64,000 bases of DNA from a bacterium (GCA_963661495.1 CAVLCA010000012.1:4450-68449); one strand, 5' to 3'; shown: positions 39,910-57,387, numbered from the stretch's first letter. The notes: generated by a model not told the origin, from the sequence alone. Translations and numbers: made by a program.

Positions 39910-42900
39910 TTATTTTATAGTTTTAAAGTATTTTTTCAGAGTGCCGAATCCGTCTTTTTCACGGTACTCAAAATCCACAGTTTCCCAACTGTTCCACTTG
40001 AAAGTTTTGTAGCCCGGATCCTGTTTTGATTCAGGGAACATATAAAGAAGGTCCTTTGTGCTCTTATCGGCAATCATAAGCGAAATCAAAAAGCCGTTTG
40101 TCTGCGTTGTTTTTGCCTGTGAGCCGAGTTTACCCGGATTGTTGATAACAATCTTTTGCGTCGGGTCGGTCACATTAAGAAGTGCCCACGGAATACGGAT
40201 ATATGTTGTTGTACCCGTTGAGTAATATTGATTGTCGCCCGAACGGAAACCGCCGTATTTGAGAGTTGCAACAAGACTGTACTTACCTGTATAGCTTTCC
40301 TTTGAAGAATAGTTGCCCTCACTTTTGTCATACGATTTTACAACATAAAGCTTCGCATTTTGTTTGCTTGAAAAATGTATAACAAATTCCATACCCGAAA
40401 GAGCGGTAGGCGTATACTTTGAAGCGTAGTAATATTCACCGTCGTTACGCTGATAAGTGTCAATGCCGACGAAGAAATCTTCTTTTGAATAATCTACCTC
40501 TTCAAGCATTCTTACATTAATATAAAGATAGCTTTCATTTGCCGAAACGGACATACCCTGCATTCTGTCATCATCGGTGTATTCCAAATCCGTGTTTTCC
40601 GGCGTTTTGGAATCAAGCGACACGATACCGGTCGTTTGAGCACTGTCGGCAACATTATGCCACAAATAATTATTAAGAAGCGGCACTGTAAACGGATACA
40701 TTTTACTCGAAACGGCAGACCAATTGTCGTTGAGGTCGGATATAACCGCACCCATAGTGTTTGCACCCGATACGGCATTAAGTCCGGCAATGAGTTTGCT
40801 TGCCTGTTCTGCCTCGCTGTTACCTCCGATGTTTGACGAAATGCTTATTGAGCTTACAAGAAGCGGAGCCTTAACGGCTGTCAAAAGGTCGCTGAGGTAT
40901 TTAGAAAATCCGTCGCCGTATGTGTTGCCGTAGCGTTTTGCGTTTTGAGCAAACACACCCTTGTCAAGCTCGCCGTTTACGGAGAGGAAGAAATACGGCT
41001 TTGACTTTTCGTTTGCCGAAATAACGGTTGACATATCGTATTTTGTGTCACCCTTTGCAAGCGAATAGTCGGCAACCGAATTTGAGTCAATCTGTACGCC
41101 GACAGGGATTTTGTAGCCGTAAGATTTGACATTTTTACTTTCGGCAATATCGCAAAGTTTTGCGGCAAACGCCTCAACAGGAGCATTTGCACTGAAATAC
41201 TTGCCGGTATAGGTGAATCCGTTTGAGCTGTTTTTAATCGCCTTGGCGTTGGCGGAAGTCAAATTTGCGTCAATCAAAACTCCGAGTACATAAGGTGAAA
41301 CATCGTTAAAATAGGAAGTGGCGTTAAGATTGGTTGTAGCCTTTGTCGAGCCGTCGCCGTGGAGTGCTTTGATAACTGTTTCAATCGCTTTTTTCCACTG
41401 CTTTTGACCGTCCTCGGTTAAATATTTATCCGCAGAAAGTCCCTCGGGAGCGGTTACCGTTTGAATTATGTAAATCTTATTATCGCTGTTATCAACATTA
41501 TTTTGATAAATCGCACGGTAAAACTCAGCCGGCATAAGACCTTTTGCTCTTACGCAATTTGCACCTATTTCATTCATTTCCTCAACAAGATTCTGATAGT
41601 AAGTGTAGTCGCGGGTGTACTTTGTTTCGCCCGGCTTGTTTGCGTTTATACTAAAGGCTTTCAGGTTAAATTCTTTGAATTTTTTGCCGTCGAGAACCTC
41701 AAATTTGCCGTTGTTTACTCGGGCAACTTCGGTAGAGTTTTTGCTTTCCTGTGCTCCTTTTTTGTGACGGTCGCCGTTTTCGGCTTTACAGTCCTTGAGG
41801 ATTTTCGTCATAAGCGGATTGTAAAACTTCCAATAAAAGCACGAAATGTCGCCCAAATTATCATAAGACAAAAACTTGAAAAACTTGTCTGCACCCAAGA
41901 ATTTATTGATATTCTTTTTGCTGACATAATCGTTAAAGTCACCGGCAAAATAGTATGCCGCCGGCTTATTTTTTACTTTTTTTCGGGTAATGGCAACAAA
42001 TCTCGGTGTGTTTGAAATTTCTGCCATTTTCTCCATACCTGTTGCATTTACATCAAATTCGAATGTGGCAAATGCCTCGGCGTCTGCATTAGCTTCAATC
42101 AATTCAAACCAATTATAAAAGTTGGTTTTTTTACAGCCCTTAAATTCCTTTTTATAATCCTCGTTCAAATAGATTTTGAGTAGGTTTTTGGAATCGAAGT
42201 CTGTTTTTTGCTCCAAGACAATGATTTTACCCTCTTTTGACACAAGCAATATTCCCGATCCGGTAAACTGCCACTCAACGCCCGACTGCTGTTCATAAAG
42301 TTCAGGTGCCCAATCGGGAACATCGGTGAAGTCCTGCAAATCATAAATATATCTGCCGACCCATCCTGTTTCGCTTATGCCGAAAAGCGACTGAAGCTGT
42401 GCGGTAACAGAAGCGGTCATATTTGAGTTAAAAAGTTCCATTTCACCGATAACTGTTGCATTATTTTCGTAAGCATAAGACACAACGGACATATCGTCGG
42501 CGTTGAAGCCCGAACCTTTGGCGTCGTCATCGTTAAAATATCCGTAAGTGTCGTTTGTCGCACCGTAAACATCGGAAATATACATCAAATCAGGCACATA
42601 ATCAAGCGTGGTAAGCTCTTTCATTTCGGTAGTCGTTCCGTCCTCTTTGAGGTGCTGACCGAAATAATCGTTTGTGTAATCGTATGCACTACCGTCCTGA
42701 AAAACGATTTTCTTTTGATTCAAAAGCCAAAAAAGTCCCTCGTGCTTTCTGTAAGCAAGCTCGTTATCAACATCGTTATCTTCTTCGGCAACAAGCACCG
42801 TTTTATCAAGCACGCAAACATTAAGGTAGGTTTTTGCCTTAATCTGCCAGCCGACAAAAGCAATAATTATTATCAAAAGCAAAATCATCGGAACTATAAA

Positions 42901-43068
42901 GTACCACTTGAAAAACCATTTTTGTTTTATCTTTTTAGTTTCCTGTTTTGTTTGCTCCGCACGGTCTTTTTCGGGATCAAATGTGTTTTCGTCCACCTGC
43001 GGTGCAACATAAGTGTTTGGATTTGAGGCTTCGTTAAGTTCTGCCCCGTTAAGCTTTTCTTCACTCAT
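39910..43068 (-). CDS. 1052-aa single-span ectoprotein of the EPS-synthase operon
   Basis: About 50-aa cytoplasmic N-terminus and span FKWYFIVPMILLLIIIIAFVGW. ANCVRAKGLMPAEFY segment. C-terminal module IRIPWALLNVTDP shared with 35152..37371. Confidence 0.85.
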   Translation of the reverse strand: MSEEKLNGAELNEASNPNTYVAPQVDENTFDPEKDRAEQTKQETKKIKQKWFFKWYFIVPMILLLIIIIAFVGWQIKAKTYLNVCVLDKTVLVAEEDNDVDNELAYRKHEGLFWLLNQKKIVFQDGSAYDYTNDYFGQHLKEDGTTTEMKELTTLDYVPDLMYISDVYGATNDTYGYFNDDDAKGSGFNADDMSVVSYAYENNATVIGEMELFNSNMTASVTAQLQSLFGISETGWVGRYIYDLQDFTDVPDWAPELYEQQSGVEWQFTGSGILLVSKEGKIIVLEQKTDFDSKNLLKIYLNEDYKKEFKGCKKTNFYNWFELIEANADAEAFATFEFDVNATGMEKMAEISNTPRFVAITRKKVKNKPAAYYFAGDFNDYVSKKNINKFLGADKFFKFLSYDNLGDISCFYWKFYNPLMTKILKDCKAENGDRHKKGAQESKNSTEVARVNNGKFEVLDGKKFKEFNLKAFSINANKPGETKYTRDYTYYQNLVEEMNEIGANCVRAKGLMPAEFYRAIYQNNVDNSDNKIYIIQTVTAPEGLSADKYLTEDGQKQWKKAIETVIKALHGDGSTKATTNLNATSYFNDVSPYVLGVLIDANLTSANAKAIKNSSNGFTYTGKYFSANAPVEAFAAKLCDIAESKNVKSYGYKIPVGVQIDSNSVADYSLAKGDTKYDMSTVISANEKSKPYFFLSVNGELDKGVFAQNAKRYGNTYGDGFSKYLSDLLTAVKAPLLVSSISISSNIGGNSEAEQASKLIAGLNAVSGANTMGAVISDLNDNWSAVSSKMYPFTVPLLNNYLWHNVADSAQTTGIVSLDSKTPENTDLEYTDDDRMQGMSVSANESYLYINVRMLEEVDYSKEDFFVGIDTYQRNDGEYYYASKYTPTALSGMEFVIHFSSKQNAKLYVVKSYDKSEGNYSSKESYTGKYSLVATLKYGGFRSGDNQYYSTGTTTYIRIPWALLNVTDPTQKIVINNPGKLGSQAKTTQTNGFLISLMIADKSTKDLLYMFPESKQDPGYKTFKWNSWETVDFEYREKDGFGTLKKYFKTIK

Positions 43069-45317
43069 TATGCTTCACCGCCTTTTTTGAGTTCGCAAAT
43101 CAAATCATAGCTTTTAATAAAAGCGTCAACAACTTTCGGGTCAAATATAGTGCCGCTGTATTCCTTGAGATACGATATGGCACGCTCGTCCGTCCACGCA
43201 TTTTTATACGAACGCACAGAAGTGAGTGCGTCAAACACATCGGCAACAGTTGTAATGCGTGCGGCAAGAGGAATTTCCTCACCCTTTAAACCGTAATATC
43301 CGTTACCGTCAATTTGTTCGTGATGATAATGTGCAATTTGAGCCGCAATGGAAATGAATTCACCGGGAACGCCCGAAAGGAGTTTGCCGCCGAACTCTGC
43401 GTGAGTTTTAACAATACTCTTCTCATCATCCGAAAGAGCCCCCTGATTTCCAAGAATGCTTTCCGGAATGATGATTTTACCTATATCGTGAAGTGCCGAA
43501 GCAAACCCGATTCGCCTTATGTCATCCTGGCTGAGACCCAATTCAGAGCAAATACAAAGCGAAATGGCTGAAACATTTGTAAGGTGGTTCTTTCCGCTTC
43601 CGCTCTTTGTTTCAACAACCTCAGCAAGCCTTGACAAAAAGTCAACCTGAAAATCCTCGTCCTTTTGCTCATCGCCCGTTGTGTTAATAAGAAGCGTAAG
43701 CTGTGCACACAAGACCTCAATTACATTGGAAATTTTGTCGTTGAGCATTTCCTTACTGCCCTCAAAGTGAATAATCGAATGAATATCGTCAAATTTTTTA
43801 AGTACAATATCAAAATAAGTGTCGCCCCAAAAGACATTATTGAGTTCGCTGTAATTTGCATAACGGTAATTAATTAGGTCGTAATTACACTCTTCGTCAA
43901 TATTATCGGAATAAATCTGATTAAATCCGCCCGCCTCGGAATTGCCTATGCACACGCCGACGGTCAACTGCTCGTCTTCGGAAAGTTGAGAATTAAGTAC
44001 TTTTTTAAGTTCCTTTGCCGCAACAACAATTTTTTCGCCGTCGTCCGAAATACTGACAACCTCATCAATAATTTTATTAAGTGCGTCAACCCAAGATGTA
44101 TCTTTTATAAATCTTTCGTATTCTTCCTGTTTTTTCTTGTATTTAAGCGATGACTTGTCAAATCCGACGGCAGTCATAACAACCGTAAACACTGCGTCTG
44201 TCATAAAATTGAACAAAACAAAGTATTTTACATTGCCAAAAAACATTTGAAGCGATAGTATAACGCTTGAAAACACAACAAAATTAAGTGCAAACCAAAC
44301 CGAAAACGAACCTTTGGCACGCCTGCCCATAGCTTGCAAAAATGCCGATTGCGAAAGTACAAGCGACGCCAAAAGAAGTGCCGAGCACACAAGCGGAAGA
44401 ATTCGGGTGACAAGCGGAACATTCGGTATCAGCGAACACAAAGCCGCAACAAACGACAGTGTGATTGTAAATTTAGCACTTTTTTTAAGAGAGCCGAAAG
44501 CGTTAAACGCTATAATTTCGGCAATAACGATACCCACAAGCGACAACGCCTGTGAAATATTTGCATAAATCGGAGCGTTAAGCGTATATGAACTTTGCAA
44601 AAATTCCCACAATCCAACTGAGCCGCCCGAAAGAATATTGTAAAACGCAATATAAAGTATCGGTGAAAAATGCTTATTCTTAATTGAAAAGGCAAGTGAA
44701 ATCAGAAGTATAATTACACCGACGGCAAGCATAACAATCGCAAACACCATACCTTGGTTAACCGGGAATGTGCTCGGTGCCTTGGTTGAAGTGCTCACTT
44801 CAAAGCATACAGAATAAGGCACAGCCATATACACCTCCACAGTTTGCGAAAGTGCTGTTTTTGTGAGCTTTACACTGTTGTAGCTGTTGCCGGTGTAACT
44901 GTCGGTTCCGTAGTGGTTATTGTACACTTCTTCACCGTTTACAAGTATTTTCAAAGGTGAACGGTCGGTTTTTATCGTAAGATATGTATCATCACTGACC
45001 TTTTCAAAGGTGTGACGAAGATAATAATATCCCGTGTTACCCTTTGTAGATATAGGCAAAACATAACTTGACTGACTTAACTCGTCCGTGTTTGGCTTGG
45101 CGTCGGCATTTTTAAGATAGCAATATTCCCACGACTGCACGCTTTTTGTATCGTTTTGCGACACGATAACATAATTTGCCGTGTACTTAACCGCAAACGA
45201 CAGCAAAATCATTGCAATCGCCAAAGCGGAGCCTATAACCAAATTCTGTCTGCCGCCCGACAAAAACTTTTTCAAATTCAATATTAACTTGTTAAACGCA
45301 TGCTTAACTGAATTCAT
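43068..45317 (-). CDS. 7TM-receptor (7TMR-DISM-like) HD-GYP domain protein, putative c-di-GMP phosphodiesterase
   Basis: N-terminal span, about 140-aa ectodomain, seven spans. Then ALHDIGKI...KTHAEFG...HYHHEQIDGNGYYGLKGEEIP...VADVFDALTS. Confidence 0.85.
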   Translation of the reverse strand: MNSVKHAFNKLILNLKKFLSGGRQNLVIGSALAIAMILLSFAVKYTANYVIVSQNDTKSVQSWEYCYLKNADAKPNTDELSQSSYVLPISTKGNTGYYYLRHTFEKVSDDTYLTIKTDRSPLKILVNGEEVYNNHYGTDSYTGNSYNSVKLTKTALSQTVEVYMAVPYSVCFEVSTSTKAPSTFPVNQGMVFAIVMLAVGVIILLISLAFSIKNKHFSPILYIAFYNILSGGSVGLWEFLQSSYTLNAPIYANISQALSLVGIVIAEIIAFNAFGSLKKSAKFTITLSFVAALCSLIPNVPLVTRILPLVCSALLLASLVLSQSAFLQAMGRRAKGSFSVWFALNFVVFSSVILSLQMFFGNVKYFVLFNFMTDAVFTVVMTAVGFDKSSLKYKKKQEEYERFIKDTSWVDALNKIIDEVVSISDDGEKIVVAAKELKKVLNSQLSEDEQLTVGVCIGNSEAGGFNQIYSDNIDEECNYDLINYRYANYSELNNVFWGDTYFDIVLKKFDDIHSIIHFEGSKEMLNDKISNVIEVLCAQLTLLINTTGDEQKDEDFQVDFLSRLAEVVETKSGSGKNHLTNVSAISLCICSELGLSQDDIRRIGFASALHDIGKIIIPESILGNQGALSDDEKSIVKTHAEFGGKLLSGVPGEFISIAAQIAHYHHEQIDGNGYYGLKGEEIPLAARITTVADVFDALTSVRSYKNAWTDERAISYLKEYSGTIFDPKVVDAFIKSYDLICELKKGGEA

Positions 45318-45335
45318 ATTGTTACCCTGTCTTTG

Positions 45336-45548
45336 TTATTTGTTTATGTTTGAATACTTATTGAGTAATTTTTTAACCTGTTGGTCGTTGTCCACGGTTG
45401 CATCGTCGTTTTCACCGACAAGTTCGTGAAACTCTGCAATGAGCTTTCCGATTTCTTCATACTTATCTTCAATATCGGAAAGAATGTCTACAAGCTTTGA
45501 ATTAACATATTTTAATTCTTCCGCTTCTTTTATGTAATCCTGATTCAT
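45336..45548 (-). CDS. Small acidic hypothetical protein (70 aa)
   Basis: ORF tightly packed between flanking genes (16-18 nt gaps). No recognisable motif. Confidence 0.5.
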   Translation of the reverse strand: MNQDYIKEAEELKYVNSKLVDILSDIEDKYEEIGKLIAEFHELVGENDDATVDNDQQVKKLLNKYSNINK

Positions 45549-45564
45549 AATTTGTCCTTTACAG

Positions 45565-46185
45565 TTATGCTAATTTTGCTATGTACTGCTTGCCGTCCTT
45601 TTGAGTTGTTACGGTAATCGTAGCAGAGCCGGACGAAGTTGTCTTTTTTTCATCCGAGAAAAACGACGCTTCAATCACATACGTTCCGTCGCTTTGAGCG
45701 GTTGACGAAGCAGTATAATATAAATCTCTGCCGTAAAGCGGTTCCCACATTTCAAACTTCTTTTTACCGCTGTTGTACAAATCGGATTTTGTAATATCAA
45801 CATTCAGCTTGCCAAAATCCTTTTGAATTTGAGAGTTAATTTGCTCGGCTGTTGCCTCACGCATTTTAACGCCCTCTCTCGGCATATCCGTGAGATTGTT
45901 ATAATAAAGTCTGCAAAAAGCATATTGCACCAACTTGCTTGTTGATATTTCACTCGGCGAATTAAAGCTGTCAATCGCAAGCAAATATTTCAATTCGTAC
46001 GCACGGTTGGCATAATATTCTTCATCAATAGTTGAGGTGTCGGCAGAAGTTTCTTCCGATGTGTCAACAACATAGTTGTCGTCCTTTTCACTTTTTTGCT
46101 TGACATTTGGGTCAACATTTGAGCAAGCCGCAAAAGCACCCACCATAAAAATAACCGACAGCAAAAACGCAATAGTCTTTTTCAT
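45565..46185 (-). CDS. Lipoprotein, function unknown
   Basis: Lipobox MKKTIAFLLSVIFMVGAFAAC|SN. Confidence 0.75.
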   Translation of the reverse strand: MKKTIAFLLSVIFMVGAFAACSNVDPNVKQKSEKDDNYVVDTSEETSADTSTIDEEYYANRAYELKYLLAIDSFNSPSEISTSKLVQYAFCRLYYNNLTDMPREGVKMREATAEQINSQIQKDFGKLNVDITKSDLYNSGKKKFEMWEPLYGRDLYYTASSTAQSDGTYVIEASFFSDEKKTTSSGSATITVTTQKDGKQYIAKLA

Positions 46186-46281
46186 ATTTATATCTCCTAA
46201 CCGTTTCTCTATATATTATATACATTATATATTATATCGGTATACAAAGCAAACAATTATACATATCTTACACTTTTTTAT

Positions 46282-46307
46282 AAAAAAAGGGACCGCAATG
46301 CAGTCCC
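46282..46307 (-). terminator. Probable rho-independent terminator after 46328..47518
   Basis: Minus strand reads GGGAC-(9 nt)-GTCCC followed by TTTTTTT. Confidence 0.5.
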
Positions 46308-46327
46308 TATGCGTATTGAAATTAGTT

Positions 46328-47518
46328 TTAGAAGCCCCAGTTGTAATCTGTGTATGAAATTGTCTTGTCTTCAGCCTGTTCAATGAATACAAAAGCTGTT
46401 TTTACATACTTGAATGAATTGTAAGCGTCTGTAATAATTGTTGAGCCTAAAGGAAGGTTTACAGAAAGGCTTTCTGTAGGAGTGTTTACAACTTTAAGAA
46501 TACCTGTTTGCTTGTCATAGTCTTCGTTGAAGTGGAATCTGTAAGCCATAAAGCACTTGTTTACATCTGTACGGAGAACCGGGTCGCCTTTTGGAAGAAC
46601 AAATGTCTTTGTTGCTTCGTCATAGCTTCTTTCTGTGTAGCTGTTTGAAACCTTAACGGTGTAAACAACTGTACCGGCAATACCGTAGCCGTAATCTGTG
46701 TAAGTGTCTGTATCCCAGTCGTTTGAGCACATCTGGAATTTGTATTCTTTACCGATTTCAAGATTAAGAGTGTCGCCTGTCTTATAAACACTGCCGTCTT
46801 CAAAACGAACAGACATCTTTTTAGGAGTTACAATGCCGAGTTCGATTGACTTTGAATCGTCATCTTCATCGTCTTTCTTGTCGTCCTTTTTGTCATCTTC
46901 TTTTTCAGTTGATTTCCACTGAGCATAAAGAGTGAAAATGTTGATTCCTTTAGGGAAACCGAGGTCTTTTACAACAATTGTGTCGCCCTCTTTGTAAGCT
47001 TTACCCGAACCGTCAGCCTTTGTGTTCCAACCTGTGAATTCATGACCCTCATATGTGAATGAGCTTGCCTTAACTGTAGCTGTGTCCTTTTTGAAGTAGT
47101 GCTGTGGGTCTGTTGTTGAGCCCGATGTTGCACCGTTTCCGTCATAAAGGAAGCTGTAAAACGGAATAATTACGCCGTCAACATGCCAACCTTCGCTTTC
47201 TTGCTTTGTAACATACCAAACAACAGATTGACCGCTTTCAAGTGAAACTTCAGGAGCGGATACGATGTTTGAAACGCCCTCTTCGTTGTACTCGCCGGTG
47301 TAACCGTCTGTAACTGTGATTTTACCGTTGCCTGCTGCCGAATAATTGCTCTTTGGCTGGCTTGCCGTACCTACAGGAACCGGAAGACCCGAGTTCAAAA
47401 GGTAAAACGAAGCGTTAACCGTTTTGCTCGATGCTGCAAATGCACTTACAGGGAACATTGATACGATAAACATAACAAGAATTACTGCCGCAGCAATTTT
47501 TTTCATACTCTTTTTCAT
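46328..47518 (-). CDS. Secreted 396-aa protein with one Listeria-Bacteroides-type (Flg_new) repeat; riboswitch-controlled
   Basis: Signal peptide ...FPVSAFA|AS. FTYEGHEFTGWNTKADGSGKAYKEGDTI...LYAQW. Asp/Lys-rich linker. No membrane anchor. Confidence 0.85.
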   Translation of the reverse strand: MKKSMKKIAAAVILVMFIVSMFPVSAFAASSKTVNASFYLLNSGLPVPVGTASQPKSNYSAAGNGKITVTDGYTGEYNEEGVSNIVSAPEVSLESGQSVVWYVTKQESEGWHVDGVIIPFYSFLYDGNGATSGSTTDPQHYFKKDTATVKASSFTYEGHEFTGWNTKADGSGKAYKEGDTIVVKDLGFPKGINIFTLYAQWKSTEKEDDKKDDKKDDEDDDSKSIELGIVTPKKMSVRFEDGSVYKTGDTLNLEIGKEYKFQMCSNDWDTDTYTDYGYGIAGTVVYTVKVSNSYTERSYDEATKTFVLPKGDPVLRTDVNKCFMAYRFHFNEDYDKQTGILKVVNTPTESLSVNLPLGSTIITDAYNSFKYVKTAFVFIEQAEDKTISYTDYNWGF

Positions 47519-47564
47519 AATTATTATCTCCTTTACGAATTATTTGTAATTTACGGGTTGTTTG

Positions 47565-47706
47565 TAAAAATAAAAACCGCAAACTGTAAAACAATCTGCG
47601 GTTTGACTACCATAGTAAATACTTTAGGTTCATAACTTTGCGTCCTGCCGTTTCCGACAGTTTGCCAAATATTAACTTAAAAATTTCAGAGATTTCTCTC
47701 GATTGC
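47565..47706 (-). promoter_or_regulatory. Class-I c-di-GMP riboswitch (GEMM-I) with terminator-type expression platform
   Basis: Minus-strand RNA reads UUUGGCAAAC-UGUCG-GAAA-CGGCA-GGACGCAAAG-UUAUGAA-CCUAAAG-UAUUUAC-UAUGGUAG-UCAAACCGCAG. It has the GGCAAAC and GACGCAAAG blocks, a GAAA tetraloop hairpin and the CCUAA(A)G/UAUGG receptor. The hairpin AAACCGCA/UGCGGUUU (47604-47574) plus a U-tract follows. Confidence 0.8.
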
Positions 47707-47712
47707 AAGGCA

Positions 47713-47741
47713 AGTATATCAAATAAAAATCCGTTTGTCAA
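47713..47741 (-). promoter_or_regulatory. Sigma-A type promoter driving the riboswitch leader
   Basis: Minus strand reads TTGACA (47741-47736), a 17-nt spacer, then TATACT (47718-47713). Confidence 0.65.
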
Positions 47742-47778
47742 TAGAAAATTCAAAAAAATATTTGTAAATTTTTCACAA

Positions 47779-48129
47779 TCAATTTTCAATCTTTTTGATG
47801 TTTTCAACAACGAGATTATAATTTTGTGTTAATTCCTCAATCATTTGTGCAGTTACACCGTTTTCGCCTCCACGCAACGCCTCGGAAATTTTAATACACG
47901 ATTTTGAAAGAAGATAGAACCCAAGATTAAGACTTATACCTTTAAGCGAATATATCGCCCTATAAGCCTCCTCCAAATTTCCGTTTTGATATTCCGTCAC
48001 AAACCTGTCGTAGCTTTCGTCATGTGAAAACGCATTTACATACTTCATTATAAGCTCATTTGAGCAAAGCCGTGAAAATACTTTTTGATAATCGCTTCCG
48101 ATTGCTTTGTAAAATTCTTTGATTTGCAT
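47779..48129 (-). CDS. Hpt-like four-helix protein lacking the phospho-accepting histidine
   Basis: EEAYRAIYSLKGISLNLGF corresponds to the Hpt H-x-x-K-G helix with Tyr in place of His. ATG at 48129 follows AAGGAAG and lies 1 nt after the upstream stop; the ORF-track start at 48156 is TTG. Confidence 0.6.
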   Translation of the reverse strand: MQIKEFYKAIGSDYQKVFSRLCSNELIMKYVNAFSHDESYDRFVTEYQNGNLEEAYRAIYSLKGISLNLGFYLLSKSCIKISEALRGGENGVTAQMIEELTQNYNLVVENIKKIEN

Positions 48130-48130
48130 A

Positions 48131-50572
48131 TTACTCACTTCCTTTATTTTGCTCAAATTCCGTAACGATGCGTTTATTATTTATTTTGCCGAAATACAAA
48201 AGCCTGTCGGCATCGTTAATTGCAAGTTCCGTATTTTCTTTGCCGTATTTGCCGCCGATTGTAATTGAAAATCGGTAATTCGGCATTTCCTCAAATTCTA
48301 TTTCACCGACCGCATTAACTAAATTTTGAAGCGTAGCGGTAAACTCGGTCTCGTTAACGCCAACAAATAACAACACAAATTCGTCTCCGCCGTAGCGAAT
48401 CAATTTGTCATTTTGTCCGATATTGGCGGTTATTGCTTTTGCAACGGCAGCAATAGCCTTATCACCGACAATATGACTGTAATTATCGTTAATCGCCTTA
48501 AATCCGTCTATATCAATCATACAAACAGCGGTGACATTTTTCAATTGCTTACCCACATCGTCAAAATAACGACGGTTAAGCGTGTCTGTAAGCGGGTCAC
48601 GGTAAAGCTTACGGTTATAGCTGTTGACATAATTGATAAAATCATTTTTACCGTAAGCGTCAAACAGCAAATCGCTTCTGTTTTGATACACCATTTCAAC
48701 CACTCTCGGATGACCGTCAATTTCCATATATTTGGAAAAGACTTGGTACACGCTGTCGTTCAAAAATTCAAGCTTCGAGTGTGTTTTTTTGGTTTTAAAA
48801 GTTTTGTACGATATGCAGTTTTGGCAACGCTCGTTTCTGCCCCAAATAGAATAACATTTGAGTCTGCCCGTTTTTTGTGCCTTGTCAACATCGCCCTCAA
48901 AAGTTTTGTTGCTTACAATATTCGTTTCAATCGGGTCAACCACACGCACAACATCAAACACTTTTTTGATTTGTTCGGCAAAAACTTCAAACCCGCTGTC
49001 GTTGTAGTTTTTCATATCGATTGTGTCAATACTCTCAAAACTGTTGCTCGGTATAATACGCATAACAACACTTTTACGCTTAAGAACCGTGTCACCCGTC
49101 CACAGCGACATAATCTTAACTTCGCACTTATACTTTTTGCCATCATGTTCAAGATGAGCCGTGCCATTAAAAATCGGAATATTCGGTGTTGTTTGATTAA
49201 TCATATCAATCAGCTTATCGTAGTTGCCGTTTCCCTTACTGAGTTCACGAAAAGTGTGCATATCAATCATTGAGCTGTCAAGATTCAAAAGTCTAACACC
49301 GTAATCCGACACAGTAACCATACCGTAGTCTATATCGTATTCGATTTGAATTTCCTTTATGCCGTTTGAAAAAAACTTACGCTTCGCATTTTCAAAAAAC
49401 AAAAGATATTTCTTATCGTCCTCATTGTCATCTTGCGAATTCAGTTTGTCGGCAATGAGTTCTTTTGTAACTCTGAACGCCATGGTATCTTCGCCCGGCA
49501 TATTCTTTCTGCCGTGCACAATCTTGCAAAGGTAGTCAGAACAATCGCTTAAACTGTTCAAAAGCAACGGATTAAAAGCCCCGCATTCGCCGGCAAGTAT
49601 CATTTTAACAGCCGTTTCGTGGTCATAAGCCGACTTGTAACAACGCTCGCTTGTAAGCGCGTCATACACATCTGCCAAAGCGACAACCTGTGCGGAAATA
49701 GGGATTTCTTCGCCTTTCAGCCCGTCCGGATAGCCAAAACCGTCCCACCTTTCGTGGTGCCATCGGCATATTTCATAAGCATATTTATATATCCCGTTTT
49801 CGTTTTTTACTCTTTTGTCAAATCCCGGCATTGCCTTTATCATATCGGAGCCTATTGCCGAATGTTTTTTTATAATTTCAAATTCGTCCGTAGTGAGTCT
49901 GCCCGGCTTATTAAGCACTTTTTCATCTATAGCGATTTTGCCTATATCATGGAGTGCGGAAGCCGTAGATATGAGCATAATTTTTCTGTTCGTCAACTCA
50001 TAACGATCCGTAATTTCGGCAACACGCTCAAGCAAAATGCGTGAAACAGTCTGAACATTATGGATATGAAGATTGCTCTCGCCGTTTCTGAATTCAACAA
50101 TATTGCCCAAAGCATCTATCATCTGACGGCTGTAAATTTCCGTTTCGGCAATTTGCTCTTCAACCATACCCATAAGTTGCTTTTGTTTTCTGTAAAGTGC
50201 AAGCGTGTTTTTTATACGGTTATGAATAGTCGCACTATTGTACGGTCGTTTAATATAATCCACAACCCCGATTTTATACGCTTCTTCCAAAAACATTTCA
50301 TCATTCGATGAAATAACAATAACAGGAACGGTTGTAAGCCAACCTCGTTCTTTCATAACACGGAGTGTCTTAAAGCCGTCCATAACAGGCATAACAAGGT
50401 CGAGCACCACAAGCTCTATTTCATCAAGATTTTCGGAAATAACAGAAACCGCCTCACAACCGTTGGCAGCTTGCAAAATCTCATATTCATCACTCAAAAG
50501 TTCCGCTAAAATCATTCTGTTGATTTGCGAATTATCAGCTATCAATATTTTTTGCTTGTCCATCGTGCTCAT
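48131..50572 (-). CDS. Response-regulator receiver + HD-GYP + Cys-motif linker domain + GGDEF protein
   Basis: REC: ILIADNS...LVVLDLVMPVMDG...DYIKRP. HD-GYP: ALHDIGKI...WHHERWDGFGYPDGLKGEEIP. GGDEF: LNRRYFDD...IDIDGFKAINDNYSHIVGD...RYGGDEFVLL. Confidence 0.9.
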   Translation of the reverse strand: MSTMDKQKILIADNSQINRMILAELLSDEYEILQAANGCEAVSVISENLDEIELVVLDLVMPVMDGFKTLRVMKERGWLTTVPVIVISSNDEMFLEEAYKIGVVDYIKRPYNSATIHNRIKNTLALYRKQKQLMGMVEEQIAETEIYSRQMIDALGNIVEFRNGESNLHIHNVQTVSRILLERVAEITDRYELTNRKIMLISTASALHDIGKIAIDEKVLNKPGRLTTDEFEIIKKHSAIGSDMIKAMPGFDKRVKNENGIYKYAYEICRWHHERWDGFGYPDGLKGEEIPISAQVVALADVYDALTSERCYKSAYDHETAVKMILAGECGAFNPLLLNSLSDCSDYLCKIVHGRKNMPGEDTMAFRVTKELIADKLNSQDDNEDDKKYLLFFENAKRKFFSNGIKEIQIEYDIDYGMVTVSDYGVRLLNLDSSMIDMHTFRELSKGNGNYDKLIDMINQTTPNIPIFNGTAHLEHDGKKYKCEVKIMSLWTGDTVLKRKSVVMRIIPSNSFESIDTIDMKNYNDSGFEVFAEQIKKVFDVVRVVDPIETNIVSNKTFEGDVDKAQKTGRLKCYSIWGRNERCQNCISYKTFKTKKTHSKLEFLNDSVYQVFSKYMEIDGHPRVVEMVYQNRSDLLFDAYGKNDFINYVNSYNRKLYRDPLTDTLNRRYFDDVGKQLKNVTAVCMIDIDGFKAINDNYSHIVGDKAIAAVAKAITANIGQNDKLIRYGGDEFVLLFVGVNETEFTATLQNLVNAVGEIEFEEMPNYRFSITIGGKYGKENTELAINDADRLLYFGKINNKRIVTEFEQNKGSE

Positions 50573-50694: not shown

Positions 50695-51333
50695 TTATAA
50701 ATTTATAACCATATCTGTCATCTTGTCAAAGTCGTCGGTATGTGAGACGATTATTACCGTTTTGCCGACAGAGTGCATTTTGCCGAGAAAATCTACAAGC
50801 CACAGTCTTGATTTTTTGTCAAGGAAATTCATCGGTTCATCAAGAATCAGCGTTTGCGGATTCATTGCAAGCACAGACGCCACGGCAACCTTTTTCTTTT
50901 CCCCCATCGAAAGATGAAAAGGTGCACGCTCCTTGAGGTGCTCCGTGCCGGTGAGGGCAAGCATATCGTCAACACGCTTTGCAATTTCATTTTCGTCAAG
51001 TTGCATTTGGCGTGGTGCAAAGGCTATTTCATCATACACACTTGAGCAAAACAGTTGTGCGTCCGTATTTTGAAAAATATAGCCGATTTTTTGATGAAAC
51101 GCTTTTGCGAATTGCTCGTTTTTCATTGAGCTTTTATTAATTTCCGTTCCGTCAAAGGTATATATTCCGATTTCGGGGAACTCCAACGCATTTATGATAT
51201 TCAAAAGCGTACTTTTGCCGCAACCGTTATCGCCTTTTATAACAACAAATTCGCCGTCGTTTATCTCCGCATTAAAATGCTTCAGCACGGGAGTGCTGTC
51301 GTATGCAAAGCAAATATCATTAAGATTAATCAT
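50695..51333 (-). CDS. cbiO: ECF transporter ATPase (CbiO-type)
   Basis: Walker A GDNGCGKST, signature LSMGEKKKVAVA, Walker B LILDEP. Confidence 0.85.
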   Translation of the reverse strand: MINLNDICFAYDSTPVLKHFNAEINDGEFVVIKGDNGCGKSTLLNIINALEFPEIGIYTFDGTEINKSSMKNEQFAKAFHQKIGYIFQNTDAQLFCSSVYDEIAFAPRQMQLDENEIAKRVDDMLALTGTEHLKERAPFHLSMGEKKKVAVASVLAMNPQTLILDEPMNFLDKKSRLWLVDFLGKMHSVGKTVIIVSHTDDFDKMTDMVINL

Positions 51334-52148
51334 TTTGCAATCACCTCAAAATAAACAAAAATTCCCACCGCACAGGCAACAAAAAGCATATACAAAAAGT
51401 CTTTTGCCTTTAATTTTTCGTGTCTTGTAACCGTGTATTTACCGCCAAAGCCTCGACATTCCATAGCTTTAACCGTTTCTTCGCCCGACTGCTTAGCTTT
51501 GATAAACACCGTGCCGAGTATTCCCGAAGCCGAGGATTTTTTGTTGTCATTCTTGCCGATTGAACGAATTTTAAGCGCCGTCAACATTTCAAAGCAAATC
51601 TCGCTCAAAATCAAAATGTATTTAACCGTAAAATCAAAGGTGAAAATCACCACATCAGGAATGTGAAACGATTTGAGCGACGAGGTTATGCTGTTAAACG
51701 GAGCGGTCAAATTGACCGACATAATAAGGCTTGTGCTGACAATCACCTTGCCGAGAACCGTGAGCAGCGTTTTCGGGTGTCCCATAAAAACAGCCGGAAG
51801 TAGAATGACAGTCGATATTAACATCGCAGGAATAAGCACTTTAAAAAGTGCCCTGATTTTGTCCGCCTTGAGAAGTGCAACTCTGACCGCAGTAACTCCG
51901 AGCATAAACAAAACGAAGCTGTAATTTTTTGCCACAGCAGTAAGAATTATCAGCAATAAAACGGCAAAAAGACGAACGGAAGTGTTCGCTTCCTTCGTCT
52001 TGTATACACCGCTGTTAACTTTATATTTTGACATCACCGCCACAACGGATTTTTGCGACTTCGTAATAAAATTGCGGTTATCCTTGGGCGGAATATAGTC
52101 CTCTTTTACCGTCAACCATGACGGTATTTCATTTTCAGTCATAGTCAA
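51330..52148 (-). CDS. cbiQ: ECF transporter T component (CbiQ-type)
   Basis: 272-aa multi-span protein overlapping both neighbours (4 and 14 nt), located between cbiM and cbiO. Confidence 0.8.
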   Translation of the reverse strand: MTMTENEIPSWLTVKEDYIPPKDNRNFITKSQKSVVAVMSKYKVNSGVYKTKEANTSVRLFAVLLLIILTAVAKNYSFVLFMLGVTAVRVALLKADKIRALFKVLIPAMLISTVILLPAVFMGHPKTLLTVLGKVIVSTSLIMSVNLTAPFNSITSSLKSFHIPDVVIFTFDFTVKYILILSEICFEMLTALKIRSIGKNDNKKSSASGILGTVFIKAKQSGEETVKAMECRGFGGKYTVTRHEKLKAKDFLYMLFVACAVGIFVYFEVIAK

Positions 52149-53124
52149 CCTTTGATTTCATAAATGTGCCGACAAGCTTAAACAAAATTGTTGAAATTGC
52201 AATACCGATAACGGCACACAAAATATATCCAATCCACTCAGGCAGACCGCCGATTGAATAATCCGGGCAAATCGCCTCAAATGTTGAGAGAGGACCGCTT
52301 GCAAGACCCTTAGGAACATAGCCGACAAGGTCGGTCATTTCGTCTGCTCCCCATTCGCCCCAAGCCGTGCCGGAAGCTAAAAGTCCGATAGGGGTTGCGA
52401 GTGTAAGCACTGCAAGAAGCACACCAATAAAAGTGTTGCCTTTTTTCGTTCTCGGTTGTTTTGCCATAATTTCCGGCGATGTCGAAGTAACAAAGGCAAG
52501 CATTGCAACAGTAAATATCGCTTCTGCCAAGCCGAAAAGTGTGAGGTGTTCCGCCATCATCGCAGGGATTGACACATTGAGTCCGTAAGGGCAATAGAGC
52601 GCCTGACCGTCTGCGGATTTGAAAAGCAGAGGCTGAATACCGAACTCGACAGCCGCACACAGTGCCGCACAGTTGATGCCTACATAACTGCCGACAGCCG
52701 CACCGATAAACTTTCCGTTTTTATTTTTGATTTTTCGGGTAATAAGATTATACACGGCATAGCCGACAAAAGGCAACACAAAAGCCATATTGAAGCAGTT
52801 TGCACCGATTGCAAGCACACCGCCGTCGCCAAACAGCAACGCTTGCAAAATCAGCGTCACGCTGACCGACAAACACGCCGCCTCGGGTCCCAAAAGTATG
52901 GCAATCAGCGTTCCGCCTACTGCGTGACCCGTTGAACCTCCGACAATCGGGATGTTGAACATCATTGCAACGAATGAAAAAGCGGCAAATATACCGAGTA
53001 GCGGCATTTTATCTTTTGTAATTTCCTTTGATACTTTTTTGATTGAATATCCCCATGCAGGAATTGTAGCGGCTGTCATAACCGCACAGGTAGCCGGGGA
53101 AAGATAGTTTTCCGGAATGTGCAT
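52135..53124 (-). CDS. cbiM: Cobalt/nickel ECF substrate component CbiM fused to a C-terminal PDGLE/CbiN-like extension
   Basis: Characteristic N-terminus MHIPENYLSP. Multi-span core. About 100 extra C-terminal aa with a further span and the GTAWGEWG segment. Confidence 0.8.
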   Translation of the reverse strand: MHIPENYLSPATCAVMTAATIPAWGYSIKKVSKEITKDKMPLLGIFAAFSFVAMMFNIPIVGGSTGHAVGGTLIAILLGPEAACLSVSVTLILQALLFGDGGVLAIGANCFNMAFVLPFVGYAVYNLITRKIKNKNGKFIGAAVGSYVGINCAALCAAVEFGIQPLLFKSADGQALYCPYGLNVSIPAMMAEHLTLFGLAEAIFTVAMLAFVTSTSPEIMAKQPRTKKGNTFIGVLLAVLTLATPIGLLASGTAWGEWGADEMTDLVGYVPKGLASGPLSTFEAICPDYSIGGLPEWIGYILCAVIGIAISTILFKLVGTFMKSKVDYD

Positions 53125-57112: not shown

Positions 57113-57381
57113 AAAAAAACTCTTGTCCTGACATTTCTGTCGGGACAAGAGTGATAAATCAATCTCCTGCGGTGCCACCCGTCTTGACACATATACTGTG
57201 CCCACTCTACACGCACTACCATGCGCAGACCGTTGTTAACGAAGTGCCAGCTCCGTCTCACCTACTGTAATTTCGGATCGCCCTCAAAAGTCCATTCGGT
57301 TTTTCCCTTACCTATCGCCATCCCACCGTCGGCAACTCTCTGAAAAGCGGTAAAAAACTTACTTACTCTTTCTCATCGGTT
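57113..57381 (-). promoter_or_regulatory. T-box riboswitch leader, probable Trp (UGG) specifier
   Basis: Minus strand shows the GA/K-turn CGAUGAGAAAGAGUA, the AG bulge CAGAGAG, and the specifier loop GAA-UGG-A (codon at 57294-57292). The T-box core is GGGUGGCACCGC (57180-57169). A 13-bp terminator (57151-57120) is followed by U7. Confidence 0.85.
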
Positions 57382-57387
57382 TTCTTA

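What the first reader, a model, noticed from the sequence alone, without database searches (positions are those of the whole stretch)
47565..47741. Class-I c-di-GMP riboswitch hidden in the 'intergenic' region upstream of a secreted protein gene
Seen: a near-consensus promoter (TTGACA-17-TATACT) starts immediately after the Hpt-like gene. The leader RNA then reads ...AAUAUUUGGCAAACUGUCGGAAACGGCAGGACGCAAAGUUAUGAACCUAAAGUAUUUACUAUGGUAGUCAAACCGCAGAUUGUUUUACAGUUUGCGGUUUUUAUUUUU. It contains four elements that match my recollection of the GEMM-I consensus and the Vc2 aptamer. These are GGCAAAC, a 6-bp hairpin capped by GAAA, GGACGCAAAG, and the CCUAA(A)G...UAUGG tetraloop-receptor pair followed by UAG. 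The 3' strand of the closing helix (CAAA) overlaps the 5' arm of an intrinsic terminator (AAACCGCA/UGCGGUUU plus a U-tract). Ligand binding should therefore influence termination. Inference: it is possibly an ON switch, because P1 formation steals part of the terminator stem, but the direction is uncertain. The controlled gene (46328..47518) encodes a 396-aa secreted protein with one Flg_new repeat and no anchor.
Basis: partly seen in the sequence, partly recalled or inferred. Interest (0 to 1): 0.7.

Follow-up and report, generated by a model that had tools for sequence, protein, structure and literature searches.

The report
Class-I c-di-GMP riboswitch, predicted ON switch
The stretch is a genuine class-I c-di-GMP riboswitch that most likely turns on a secreted, adhesin-like protein gene when the bacterial signal c-di-GMP is high; it is a correct call, but an ordinary new member of a well-known RNA family.

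Summary
Rfam's c-di-GMP-I model (RF01051) matches window 47676..47594 (- strand) over its full length at 66.8 bits, against a gathering score of 35 (E 6.6e-11). The match lies between an 11/12 sigma-70 promoter (47741..47713) and a 14-bp intrinsic terminator (47604..47574 plus U-tract). A 396-aa secreted Flg_new protein gene follows.

The terminator's 5' arm reuses the last 11 nt of the aptamer: part of the 3' strand of the second hairpin, the predicted ligand-contact C, and the P1 3' strand. Aptamer and terminator therefore exclude each other, and ligand binding should give read-through (ON). The experimentally shown Bc2/cap class-I ON switch of Bacillus thuringiensis is described the same way.

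This layout is conserved:
- 71 of 80 related loci from Oscillospiraceae, Ruminococcus and 'Eubacterium' MAGs carry the riboswitch (69 RF01051, 2 the GGC variant).
- 83 of the 86 RF01051 aptamers analysed (window included) have a terminator overlapping the aptamer's 3' end by at least 4 nt (mostly 6-21).
- Both alternative structures show compensatory changes.

Verdict: new member of a known kind. Ligand binding and switch direction are untested. Side result: a conserved group of riboswitch, secreted protein, lipoprotein and HD-GYP genes.

The parts
47713..47741 (-). Sigma-70-type promoter: -35 TTGACA (47741-47736), 17-nt spacer with TG extension, -10 TATACT (47718-47713). Predicted transcription start about 47706.
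   Evidence: 11 of 12 matches. The same TTGACAAA...TG.TATAAT layout is seen in orthologous leaders L002-L007.
47689..47700 (-). Small 5'-proximal hairpin GAGA-GAAA-UCUC near the predicted transcript start. Possibly a 5' stabiliser; its role is unknown.
   Evidence: Predicted in the folds. Close orthologues have a hairpin at the same place with different stem sequences (CACU/AGUG, GUAC/GUAC, GCAAU/GUUGC).
47594..47676 (-). c-di-GMP-I (GEMM-I) aptamer. P1 is AUUUG 47670-47666 paired with CAGAU 47598-47594. First hairpin has a GAAA tetraloop; second hairpin has the tetraloop receptor. Predicted ligand contacts: G47666 (Vc2 G20 equivalent), A47639 (A47 equivalent), C47598 (C92 equivalent).
   Evidence: RF01051, 66.8 bits against 35; 97.9% of cells paired, 4 pairs with changes on both sides. 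The mapping to Vc2 numbering rests on my own knowledge of the Vc2 structures.
47574..47604 (-). Intrinsic terminator hairpin, 14 bp with a UUU loop. Its 5' arm (47604-47591) shares 47604-47594 with the aptamer.
   Evidence: (-17 kcal/mol, 11-nt overlap); 96.6% paired, 3 pairs with changes on both sides.
47566..47573 (-). U-tract (UUAUUUUU) immediately after the terminator stem.
47528..47533 (-). Shine-Dalgarno sequence AAGGAG, 9 nt before the ATG. It is not part of the switch in this locus.
   Evidence: read directly from the sequence.
46328..47518 (-). Regulated gene: 396-aa secreted protein. Layout is signal peptide, an all-beta N-terminal region with one Flg_new repeat, a D/K-rich linker, and a conserved ~175-aa C-terminal beta domain of unknown function.
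46288..46308 (-). Terminator-like hairpin plus U-tract after the regulated gene. It suggests a mainly monocistronic unit.
45565..46185 (-). 206-aa predicted lipoprotein (lipobox ...GAFAAC). It is a syntenic partner of the regulated gene family.
   Evidence: synteny.
43068..45317 (-). 749-aa multi-pass membrane protein with a C-terminal HD-GYP-type domain (the motif reads GYY). It is the third member of the conserved gene triad.
48131..50572 (-). Upstream gene: response-regulator receiver + HD-GYP + GGDEF protein (813 aa, intact GGDEF motif at residue 728). A c-di-GMP turnover enzyme located next to the riboswitch.
47779..48156 (-). 125-aa Hpt-like ORF immediately upstream of the promoter. The Pfam match is weak.
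   Evidence: 20.9 bits against a cut-off of 24.6.

Best explanation
This is a transcriptional class-I c-di-GMP riboswitch, most likely an ON switch.

Transcription starts near 47706 from the TTGACA-17-TATACT promoter, and the aptamer (47676-47594) is made first.

At low c-di-GMP:
- The weak, AU-rich P1 (AUUUG/CAGAU) and the base of the second hairpin do not hold.
- Their 3' strand (AAACCGCAGAU) instead pairs with ACAGUUUGCGGUUU.
- This forms a 14-bp terminator followed by a U-tract, so most transcripts end near 47566-47573.

At high c-di-GMP:
- The ligand locks the junction of P1 and the two hairpins.
- It should do so through G47666, A47639 and C47598, the equivalents of Vc2 G20, A47 and C92.
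- That holds the terminator's 5' arm inside the aptamer, and only a 3-bp remnant can then form.
- RNA polymerase reads through into the 396-aa secreted, adhesin-like protein gene.

What is shown: the aptamer match, the terminator, their physical overlap, and conservation and covariation of both structures. What is inferred: ligand identity, ligand binding, and the direction of regulation.
For: - Aptamer: RF01051 at 66.8 bits against a gathering score of 35, E 6.6e-11, full model length.
- Promoter and terminator flank the aptamer.
- The terminator's 5' arm overlaps the aptamer's last 11 nt.
- Without a ligand term, the terminator conformer is favoured: -37.0 kcal/mol against -20.8 with the aptamer enforced. 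The unconstrained minimum-energy fold also contains the terminator. The default state is therefore OFF.
- Comparative data: all 20 orthologue loci carry RF01051 70-180 nt upstream of the gene. Overall 71 of 80 loci encoding the C-terminal domain carry a class-I aptamer upstream.
- Of the 86 RF01051 aptamers analysed (window included), 83 have a hairpin plus U-tract whose 5' arm overlaps the aptamer's 3' end by at least 4 nt (mostly 6-21).
- In 9 close relatives the aptamer helices are 97.9% paired, with 4 pairs changed on both sides. The terminator is 96.6% paired, with 3 such pairs. Both beat all slid controls.
- Alignment column 110 (window 47603) pairs in both structures: U-A or U-G in the aptamer, A-U or G-C in the terminator.
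- In the L014, L019, L020, L021 subclade, the partner strand of the aptamer's 3' end is GAGAGGAG followed by a 7-8-nt U run and then AUG, i.e. the ribosome-binding site. Ligand binding there would free the site, which is also ON.
- Precedent: the class-I riboswitch Bc2 upstream of the collagen adhesion protein gene cap was shown to be an ON switch. In that system the terminator forms at low c-di-GMP and the ligand causes read-through (PMC4933901).
- Biological fit: paralogue heads include adhesin-type modules (pAdhesive_15, CBM_2, beta-helix, Flg_new). High c-di-GMP generally promotes adherence (PMC6366702).
Against: - No experiment exists: ligand binding, termination and direction all come from sequence analysis.
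- The review warns that the direction of c-di-GMP riboswitches cannot be extrapolated between species. All seven functional class-I switches of C. difficile are OFF.
- The thermodynamic gap of about 16 kcal/mol in favour of the terminator means the switch must be kinetically controlled. How efficiently it works cannot be judged here.
- The tip of the second hairpin is very short in the window (GUA-UU-UAC in the Rfam alignment, which is not a feasible hairpin as drawn).
- My own-versus-cross complementarity control did not discriminate.
Confidence: 0.8

Rival explanations
1. It is a genuine c-di-GMP-I riboswitch but an OFF switch. Ligand binding would favour termination or mRNA decay, as in C. 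difficile Cd1 and the other class-I switches of that species.
For: All seven functional class-I riboswitches of C. difficile, another member of the Clostridia, are OFF (PMC6366702). In the window there is also a 9-nt perfect complementarity between the aptamer's 5' part (GCAAACUGU) and the terminator's 3' arm (ACAGUUUGC), read. In principle this could act as a ligand-sensitive anti-terminator.
Against: An OFF design needs the terminator to be compatible with the folded aptamer. Here 11 of the 14 nt of the terminator's 5' arm lie inside the aptamer, and 83 of 86 relatives share this overlap. The GCAAACUGU/ACAGUUUGC complementarity is not kept in orthologues such as L004 and L010. It largely follows from both strands being complementary to the same segment. 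The subclade in which the partner strand is the ribosome-binding site only makes sense as ON.
Confidence: 0.1
2. The aptamer senses a different cyclic dinucleotide, such as 3',3'-cGAMP (as GEMM-Ib does) or the unknown ligand of the GGC and UAU variants, rather than c-di-GMP.
For: Six related aptamers have A at the G20-equivalent position (L015, L038, L042, L049, L063, L071). Two loci score best as the GGC variant RF03167 (L034, L058). Specificity variants therefore exist within this regulon.
Against: The window's aptamer has G at that position (47666) and C at the C92 equivalent (47598). It scores best as RF01051 within the clan. The neighbouring genes encode GGDEF and HD-GYP enzymes, which act on c-di-GMP.
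Confidence: 0.05
3. It is a decayed or non-functional aptamer copy. The hairpin plus U-tract would then simply be the terminator of the upstream GGDEF-Hpt operon.
For: Five of the 16 predicted c-di-GMP riboswitches of C. difficile 630 are non-functional. No separate terminator-like site was found between the Hpt-like ORF and the riboswitch.
Against: The match covers the full model at about 32 bits above threshold, with all conserved pocket nucleotides. The aptamer has its own strong promoter. The aptamer-terminator unit is kept upstream of homologues with only 40-60% protein identity and with different upstream genes. Both structures show compensatory changes.
Confidence: 0.05

Closest known systems
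Bc2 c-di-GMP-I riboswitch upstream of cap (collagen adhesion protein), Bacillus thuringiensis BMB171 (PMC4933901)
   Same: Both are class-I aptamers in the 5' UTR of a surface or adhesion-type protein gene in a Firmicute. Both have an intrinsic terminator as the default state. In Bc2, ligand-dependent read-through (an ON switch, repression then de-repression) was shown. Here the aptamer itself would act as the anti-terminator.
   Different: The host is different (an uncultured gut member of the Clostridia/Oscillospiraceae) and the regulated protein is unrelated: no collagen-binding or LPXTG architecture. The window's switch has not been tested. I did not compare the Bc2 sequence directly.
Vc2 (Vibrio cholerae tfoY) c-di-GMP-I aptamer, the structural reference for the class
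   Same: Both have a three-helix junction, a GAAA tetraloop docking into a receptor on the second hairpin, and equivalents of G20, A47 and C92 (Rfam alignment, plus my own knowledge of the Vc2 crystal structures).
   Different: Vc2 does not act through an intrinsic terminator and behaves as an OFF switch. The window's P1 is a continuous AU-rich 5-bp helix, and the tip of its second hairpin is much shorter.
Cd1 (Cdi-1-3) and other class-I riboswitches of Clostridioides difficile
   Same: Same aptamer class, same bacterial class, and control through transcription termination.
   Different: Those switches are uniformly OFF. Here the terminator overlaps the aptamer, which predicts ON. In C. difficile the ON control of adhesins and pili is carried out by class-II aptamers.
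Tandem c-di-GMP-I riboswitches (347 doublets and 12 triplets reported, PMC9481103)
   Same: Several paralogous loci of this gene family carry two or three complete aptamer-terminator units in series (L065, L067, L070, L074, L077, L078, L081).
   Different: The window has a single unit.

Membership tests
c-di-GMP-I riboswitch (GEMM-I, Rfam RF01051) | Covariance-model score at or above the curated gathering score, over the whole model | tested here: met
   66.8 bits against 35, E 6.6e-11, model positions 1-87 of 87, window 47676..47594 (-).
c-di-GMP-I riboswitch (GEMM-I, Rfam RF01051) | Two adjacent hairpins: the first capped by a GNRA tetraloop, the second carrying the tetraloop receptor | tested here: met
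   CUGUCG-GAAA-CGGCAG in the first hairpin. CCUAAA...CUAUGG aligns to the consensus CUAAg...uAuG. Helices are 98-100% paired in 9 relatives, with compensatory changes.
c-di-GMP-I riboswitch (GEMM-I, Rfam RF01051) | Ligand-pocket nucleotides equivalent to Vc2 G20, A47 and C92 | tested here: met
   G47666, A47639 and C47598 sit at the corresponding consensus positions. Across the 86 related aptamers, model position 11 is G in 80 and position 83 is always C. The mapping to Vc2 numbering is from my own knowledge.
c-di-GMP-I riboswitch (GEMM-I, Rfam RF01051) | Closing helix P1 joining the 5' and 3' ends | tested here: met
   AUUUG (47670-47666) pairs with CAGAU (47598-47594). This helix is 92.3% paired in the close clade. 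In more distant relatives the register differs and contains internal mismatches.
c-di-GMP-I riboswitch (GEMM-I, Rfam RF01051) | Specific, high-affinity binding of c-di-GMP | not testable with these tools
   Requires in-line probing, ITC or gel-shift with RNA 47706-47590.
Transcriptional ON riboswitch (Bc2-like) | An intrinsic terminator that cannot coexist with the ligand-bound aptamer | tested here: met
   The two share 11 nt in the window. The same overlap is found in 83 of 86 related aptamers. Terminator pairing is kept through compensatory changes.
Transcriptional ON riboswitch (Bc2-like) | Ligand-dependent increase in read-through or expression | not testable with these tools
   Requires single-round transcription assays or reporter fusions.
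GEMM-Ib (3',3'-cGAMP riboswitch) | A in place of G at the G20-equivalent position | tested here: not met
   The window has G at 47666. Six relatives do have A.
c-di-GMP-II riboswitch (RF01786) | A match to the class-II covariance model | tested here: not met
   No such match anywhere in the window, even at E up to 1.

The most novel reading that the evidence does not exclude
The riboswitch may be one entry point into an undescribed c-di-GMP-controlled surface-protein system of gut and rumen Oscillospiraceae and Ruminococcus.

The observed components are:
- A family of modular secreted proteins. They share a ~175-aa all-beta C-terminal domain that has no Pfam or NCBIfam model and no PDB fold match. 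It is fused to interchangeable adhesin-like heads: Flg_new, DUF7305, beta-helix, pAdhesive_15, CBM_2.
- ON-type class-I c-di-GMP riboswitches upstream of nearly every copy, single, double or triple.
- A lipoprotein gene and a multi-pass membrane HD-GYP phosphodiesterase gene, usually found next door.

The speculative part: the C-terminal domain could be the attachment or partner-binding module, since these proteins lack LPXTG. The HD-GYP protein could close a negative feedback loop on c-di-GMP.
Probability: 0.35. Interest if true: 0.5.

Novelty: new member of a known kind. Interest (0 to 1): 0.3.

Why it matters
For the window itself, the result annotates an 'intergenic' stretch as a regulatory RNA. 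It also predicts that the 396-aa secreted protein is made only when c-di-GMP is high. This is routine but useful annotation for an uncultured gut bacterium.

More broadly, the comparative data show that one protein family, defined by an uncharacterised C-terminal domain, is almost always preceded by ON-type class-I c-di-GMP riboswitches across Oscillospiraceae and Ruminococcus. That gives a concrete, testable handle on what c-di-GMP controls in these abundant, poorly studied gut and rumen commensals. The likely answer is surface adhesion to fibre, mucus or other cells.

It also adds many predicted class-I ON switches to a class whose best-studied clostridial examples are all OFF.

Tried and rejected
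1. Own-versus-cross complementarity control for the terminator. I measured the longest complementary run between each aptamer's last 12 nt and its own downstream region, then compared it with other loci's downstream regions. The result was not discriminating (mean 7.4 against 6.0). All aptamers share the GCUGCA core, and stems contain bulges. I relied instead on the alignment-based pair counts and the 83 of 86 terminator count.

2. An anti-terminator idea. The window's GCAAACUGU (aptamer 5' part) is a perfect complement of ACAGUUUGC (terminator 3' arm), which could support OFF logic. I rejected it because the complementarity is not conserved in orthologues and follows from both strands pairing with the same segment.

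3. Direct energy evaluation of the Rfam-drawn aptamer failed, because the drawn tip of the second hairpin (GUA-UU-UAC) has an impossible 2-nt loop. I used constrained folding instead.

4. Fold search of the full 396-aa model gave only meaningless multi-domain matches to pilus adhesins (TM about 0.14). The high-confidence C-terminal domain model (pLDDT 95) found no significant PDB match (best E 0.025). NCBIfam had nothing for the 396-aa, 206-aa, 1052-aa or Hpt-like proteins.

5. Literature searches for c-di-GMP riboswitches in Ruminococcus, Oscillospiraceae or Eubacterium found nothing relevant in the held library.

6. I looked for a second riboswitch in front of the 206-aa lipoprotein gene in the window, as seen in L003, L005, L061 and L067. 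None was found even at E up to 1.

7. I looked for extra paralogues of the regulated gene within the window. There are none.

Full report
**1. What is in the sequence**

All features lie on the - strand.

- An Hpt-like ORF ends at 47779.
- Next comes a promoter-like site, TTGACA-17-TATACT with a TG extension, at 47741..47713. It has 11 of 12 matches and is the best of the ten sites found in 46000-48500.
- About 30 nt after the predicted transcription start, Rfam's c-di-GMP-I model RF01051 matches 47676..47594. The score is 66.8 bits against a gathering score of 35, E 6.6e-11, covering model positions 1-87 of 87. It is the only family above threshold in the whole 64-kb window.
- A 14-bp hairpin followed by UUAUUUUU lies at 47604..47574.
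- The Shine-Dalgarno sequence AAGGAG is at 47533-47528. The ATG at 47518 opens a 396-aa ORF (46328..47518).
- That protein has a signal-peptide-like N-terminus and one Flg_new domain.

**2. Corrections to the anatomy**

The closing helix P1 is AUUUG (47670-47666) with CAGAU (47598-47594). It is 92% paired across nine close relatives.

The terminator's 5' arm (AAACCGCAGAUUGU, 47604-47591) therefore shares 11 nt with the aptamer, not 4. The shared part comprises the base of the second hairpin, the C that corresponds to Vc2 C92 (47598), and the whole P1 3' strand.

The G20 equivalent is G47666 and the A47 equivalent is A47639. This mapping to Vc2 numbering rests on my own knowledge of the Vc2 crystal structures.

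**3. Mechanism**

Aptamer and terminator use the same nucleotides, so they exclude each other.

- Without any ligand term, the terminator conformer is far more stable: -37.0 kcal/mol against -20.8 with the aptamer enforced. The unconstrained fold also contains the terminator (z-score -3.1).
- The default state is therefore termination.
- A ligand-locked aptamer leaves only a 3-bp remnant of the terminator, which should allow read-through.

This is ON logic. It corresponds to the mechanism reported for Bc2, the class-I riboswitch in front of the collagen adhesion protein gene of B. thuringiensis. There the terminator forms at low c-di-GMP and the ligand promotes read-through (PMC4933901).

The direction here is inferred, not shown. 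A review warns explicitly that direction cannot be extrapolated between species and notes that C. difficile class-I switches are all OFF (PMC6366702).

**4. Comparative evidence**

The 396-aa protein has 1255 relatives at E <= 0.001 in the protein collection. Using an alignment of 24 full-length relatives, I fetched 80 loci from GTDB representative genomes. All are Oscillospiraceae, Ruminococcus, 'Eubacterium' or unclassified Clostridia, mostly gut or rumen MAGs. The closest, L002, is 96% identical.

Rfam scans gave the following:
- RF01051 lies upstream of the gene in all 20 full-length orthologue loci.
- Across all 80 loci, 71 carry a class-I aptamer upstream on the coding strand. Of these, 69 are RF01051 and 2 score as the GGC variant RF03167.
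- Four of the nine loci without a hit are cut off close upstream of the match (L033, L045, L059, L075).

For the 86 RF01051 aptamers analysed (window included), I looked for a stable hairpin ending at a U-tract.
- 83 have one whose 5' arm overlaps the aptamer's 3' end by at least 4 nt (mostly 6-21).
- One overlaps by 2 nt, and two have no detected terminator.

Stem sequences differ widely between clades (AAACCGCAG, AGGCUGCAC, GCCAGGUUGC, GACCGGCUGC, GACAGUCCGG, GCUCCU) while complementarity is kept.

In a MAFFT alignment of nine close leaders:
- The aptamer helices are 97.9% paired, with 4 pairs changed on both sides. Slid controls reach only 20-45%.
- The terminator is 96.6% paired, with 3 such pairs. 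Slid controls reach 33-50%.
- Alignment column 110 (window 47603) pairs in both structures. It forms U-A or U-G in the aptamer and A-U or G-C in the terminator, so the terminator's 3' arm tracks a change inside the aptamer.

In the subclade L014, L019, L020, L021, the strand that pairs with the aptamer's 3' end (GCUCCU) is GAGAGGAG followed by a 7-8-nt U run and then AUG. The same hairpin therefore both terminates transcription and hides the ribosome-binding site. Only ON logic makes sense of that arrangement.

**5. What is regulated, and the neighbourhood**

The 396-aa protein is predicted to be all-beta.

Its last ~175 residues form a domain that models at pLDDT 95. That domain has no significant PDB fold match (best E 0.025) and no Pfam or NCBIfam model.

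Many relatives share only this domain. In them it is fused to other heads: multiple Flg_new repeats, DUF7305, Beta_helix_3, pAdhesive_15 or CBM_2. This is the pattern of modular adhesins or carbohydrate binders. There is no LPXTG motif or C-terminal membrane anchor.

tblastn synteny shows that in about 45 loci the gene is followed by homologues of two window genes:
- the 206-aa gene (45565-46185), a predicted lipoprotein with lipobox GAFAAC;
- the 749-aa gene (43068-45317), a multi-pass membrane protein ending in an HD-GYP-type domain whose motif reads GYY.

In L003, L005, L061 and L067 the lipoprotein gene has its own class-I aptamer. In the window it does not. There the regulated gene is followed by its own terminator-like hairpin at 46308..46288.

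Upstream, only the close relatives L002-L007 share the receiver + HD-GYP + GGDEF protein (48131-50572, intact GGDEF motif). The Hpt-like ORF was detected in four of them (L002, L004, L005, L006).

The riboswitch thus sits among c-di-GMP-making and c-di-GMP-degrading genes. This fits c-di-GMP as the ligand.

**6. Comparison with known systems, and novelty**

The RNA passes every membership feature of c-di-GMP-I that can be tested in silico. It fails the tests for GEMM-Ib (G, not A, at the G20 position) and for class II (no model match).

Its expression platform is of the known terminator/aptamer-overlap ON type. It is a new member of a known kind. A specialist would not be surprised, and no open question hinges on it.

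The more interesting by-product is the regulon-level picture: an uncharacterised C-terminal domain family, almost always under ON-type class-I riboswitches, often in tandem. Tandem class-I arrangements are already known in general (347 doublets and 12 triplets; PMC9481103). This family is linked to a lipoprotein and an HD-GYP gene. I found no paper on this in the held library. It remains a hypothesis about function.

**7. Verdict**

- Observation: confirmed.
- Interpretation: supported, with minor corrections to helix labels and overlap.
- Mechanism: ON through mutually exclusive aptamer and terminator, confidence about 0.8.
- Novelty: new member of a known kind.
- Interest: 0.3.

Noticed in passing
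window 43068-47518 (-); loci L002-L067: A gene triad is conserved in about 45 loci across Oscillospiraceae and Ruminococcus. It consists of a secreted protein with the ~175-aa C-terminal domain, a ~206-aa lipoprotein, and a multi-pass membrane HD-GYP protein. In L003, L005, L061 and L067 the lipoprotein gene has its own c-di-GMP-I aptamer.
   Followed up: partly
window 46331-46855 (-), residues 222-396 of the 396-aa protein: The C-terminal domain models at pLDDT 95 but has no significant PDB fold match and no Pfam or NCBIfam model. In paralogues it is fused to Flg_new, DUF7305, Beta_helix_3, pAdhesive_15 or CBM_2 heads.
   Followed up: partly
L015:2821, L038:2207, L042:2359, L049:2356, L063:1840, L071:1839: Six related aptamers have A instead of G at the G20-equivalent pocket position. 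This change is associated with c-AMP-GMP-responsive variants (PMC9481103). L034 and L058 score best as the c-di-GMP-I-GGC variant RF03167.
   Followed up: no
L065, L067, L070, L074, L077, L078, L081: Two or three complete c-di-GMP-I aptamer-terminator units lie in tandem upstream of paralogues of the gene family.
   Followed up: partly
window 47689-47700 (-): A 4-bp hairpin with a GAAA loop sits near the predicted transcription start. Orthologues L003-L007 keep a hairpin there with different stem sequences and purine-rich loops. It may be a 5' mRNA stabiliser.
   Followed up: no
window 57138-57385 (-): A T-box leader match scores 92.4 bits, just under the gathering score of 93 (E 7e-19, full model length). 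It is almost certainly a real T-box.
   Followed up: no
window 47742-47778 (-): No terminator-like site was found between the GGDEF/Hpt-like operon and the riboswitch. Read-through from that operon might also be gated by the riboswitch terminator.
   Followed up: no
window 43068-45317 (-), residues ~610-675: The HD-GYP-type domain of the 749-aa protein reads HHEQIDGNGYYG (GYY instead of GYP). The upstream 813-aa protein has the canonical GFGYP. Whether the GYY protein is catalytically active is unknown.
   Followed up: no
window 39910-43068 (-); L012, L014, L026, L069, L079: A 1052-aa protein with one N-terminal transmembrane segment has no Pfam or NCBIfam match. Weak homologues (about 19-22% identity) lie upstream of the riboswitch-controlled gene in five other loci.
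   Followed up: no
window 50695-53124 (-): A CbiM/CbiQ/ABC ATPase (ECF-type cobalt or nickel transporter) gene cluster lies upstream of the c-di-GMP genes. It appears unrelated to the finding.
   Followed up: no
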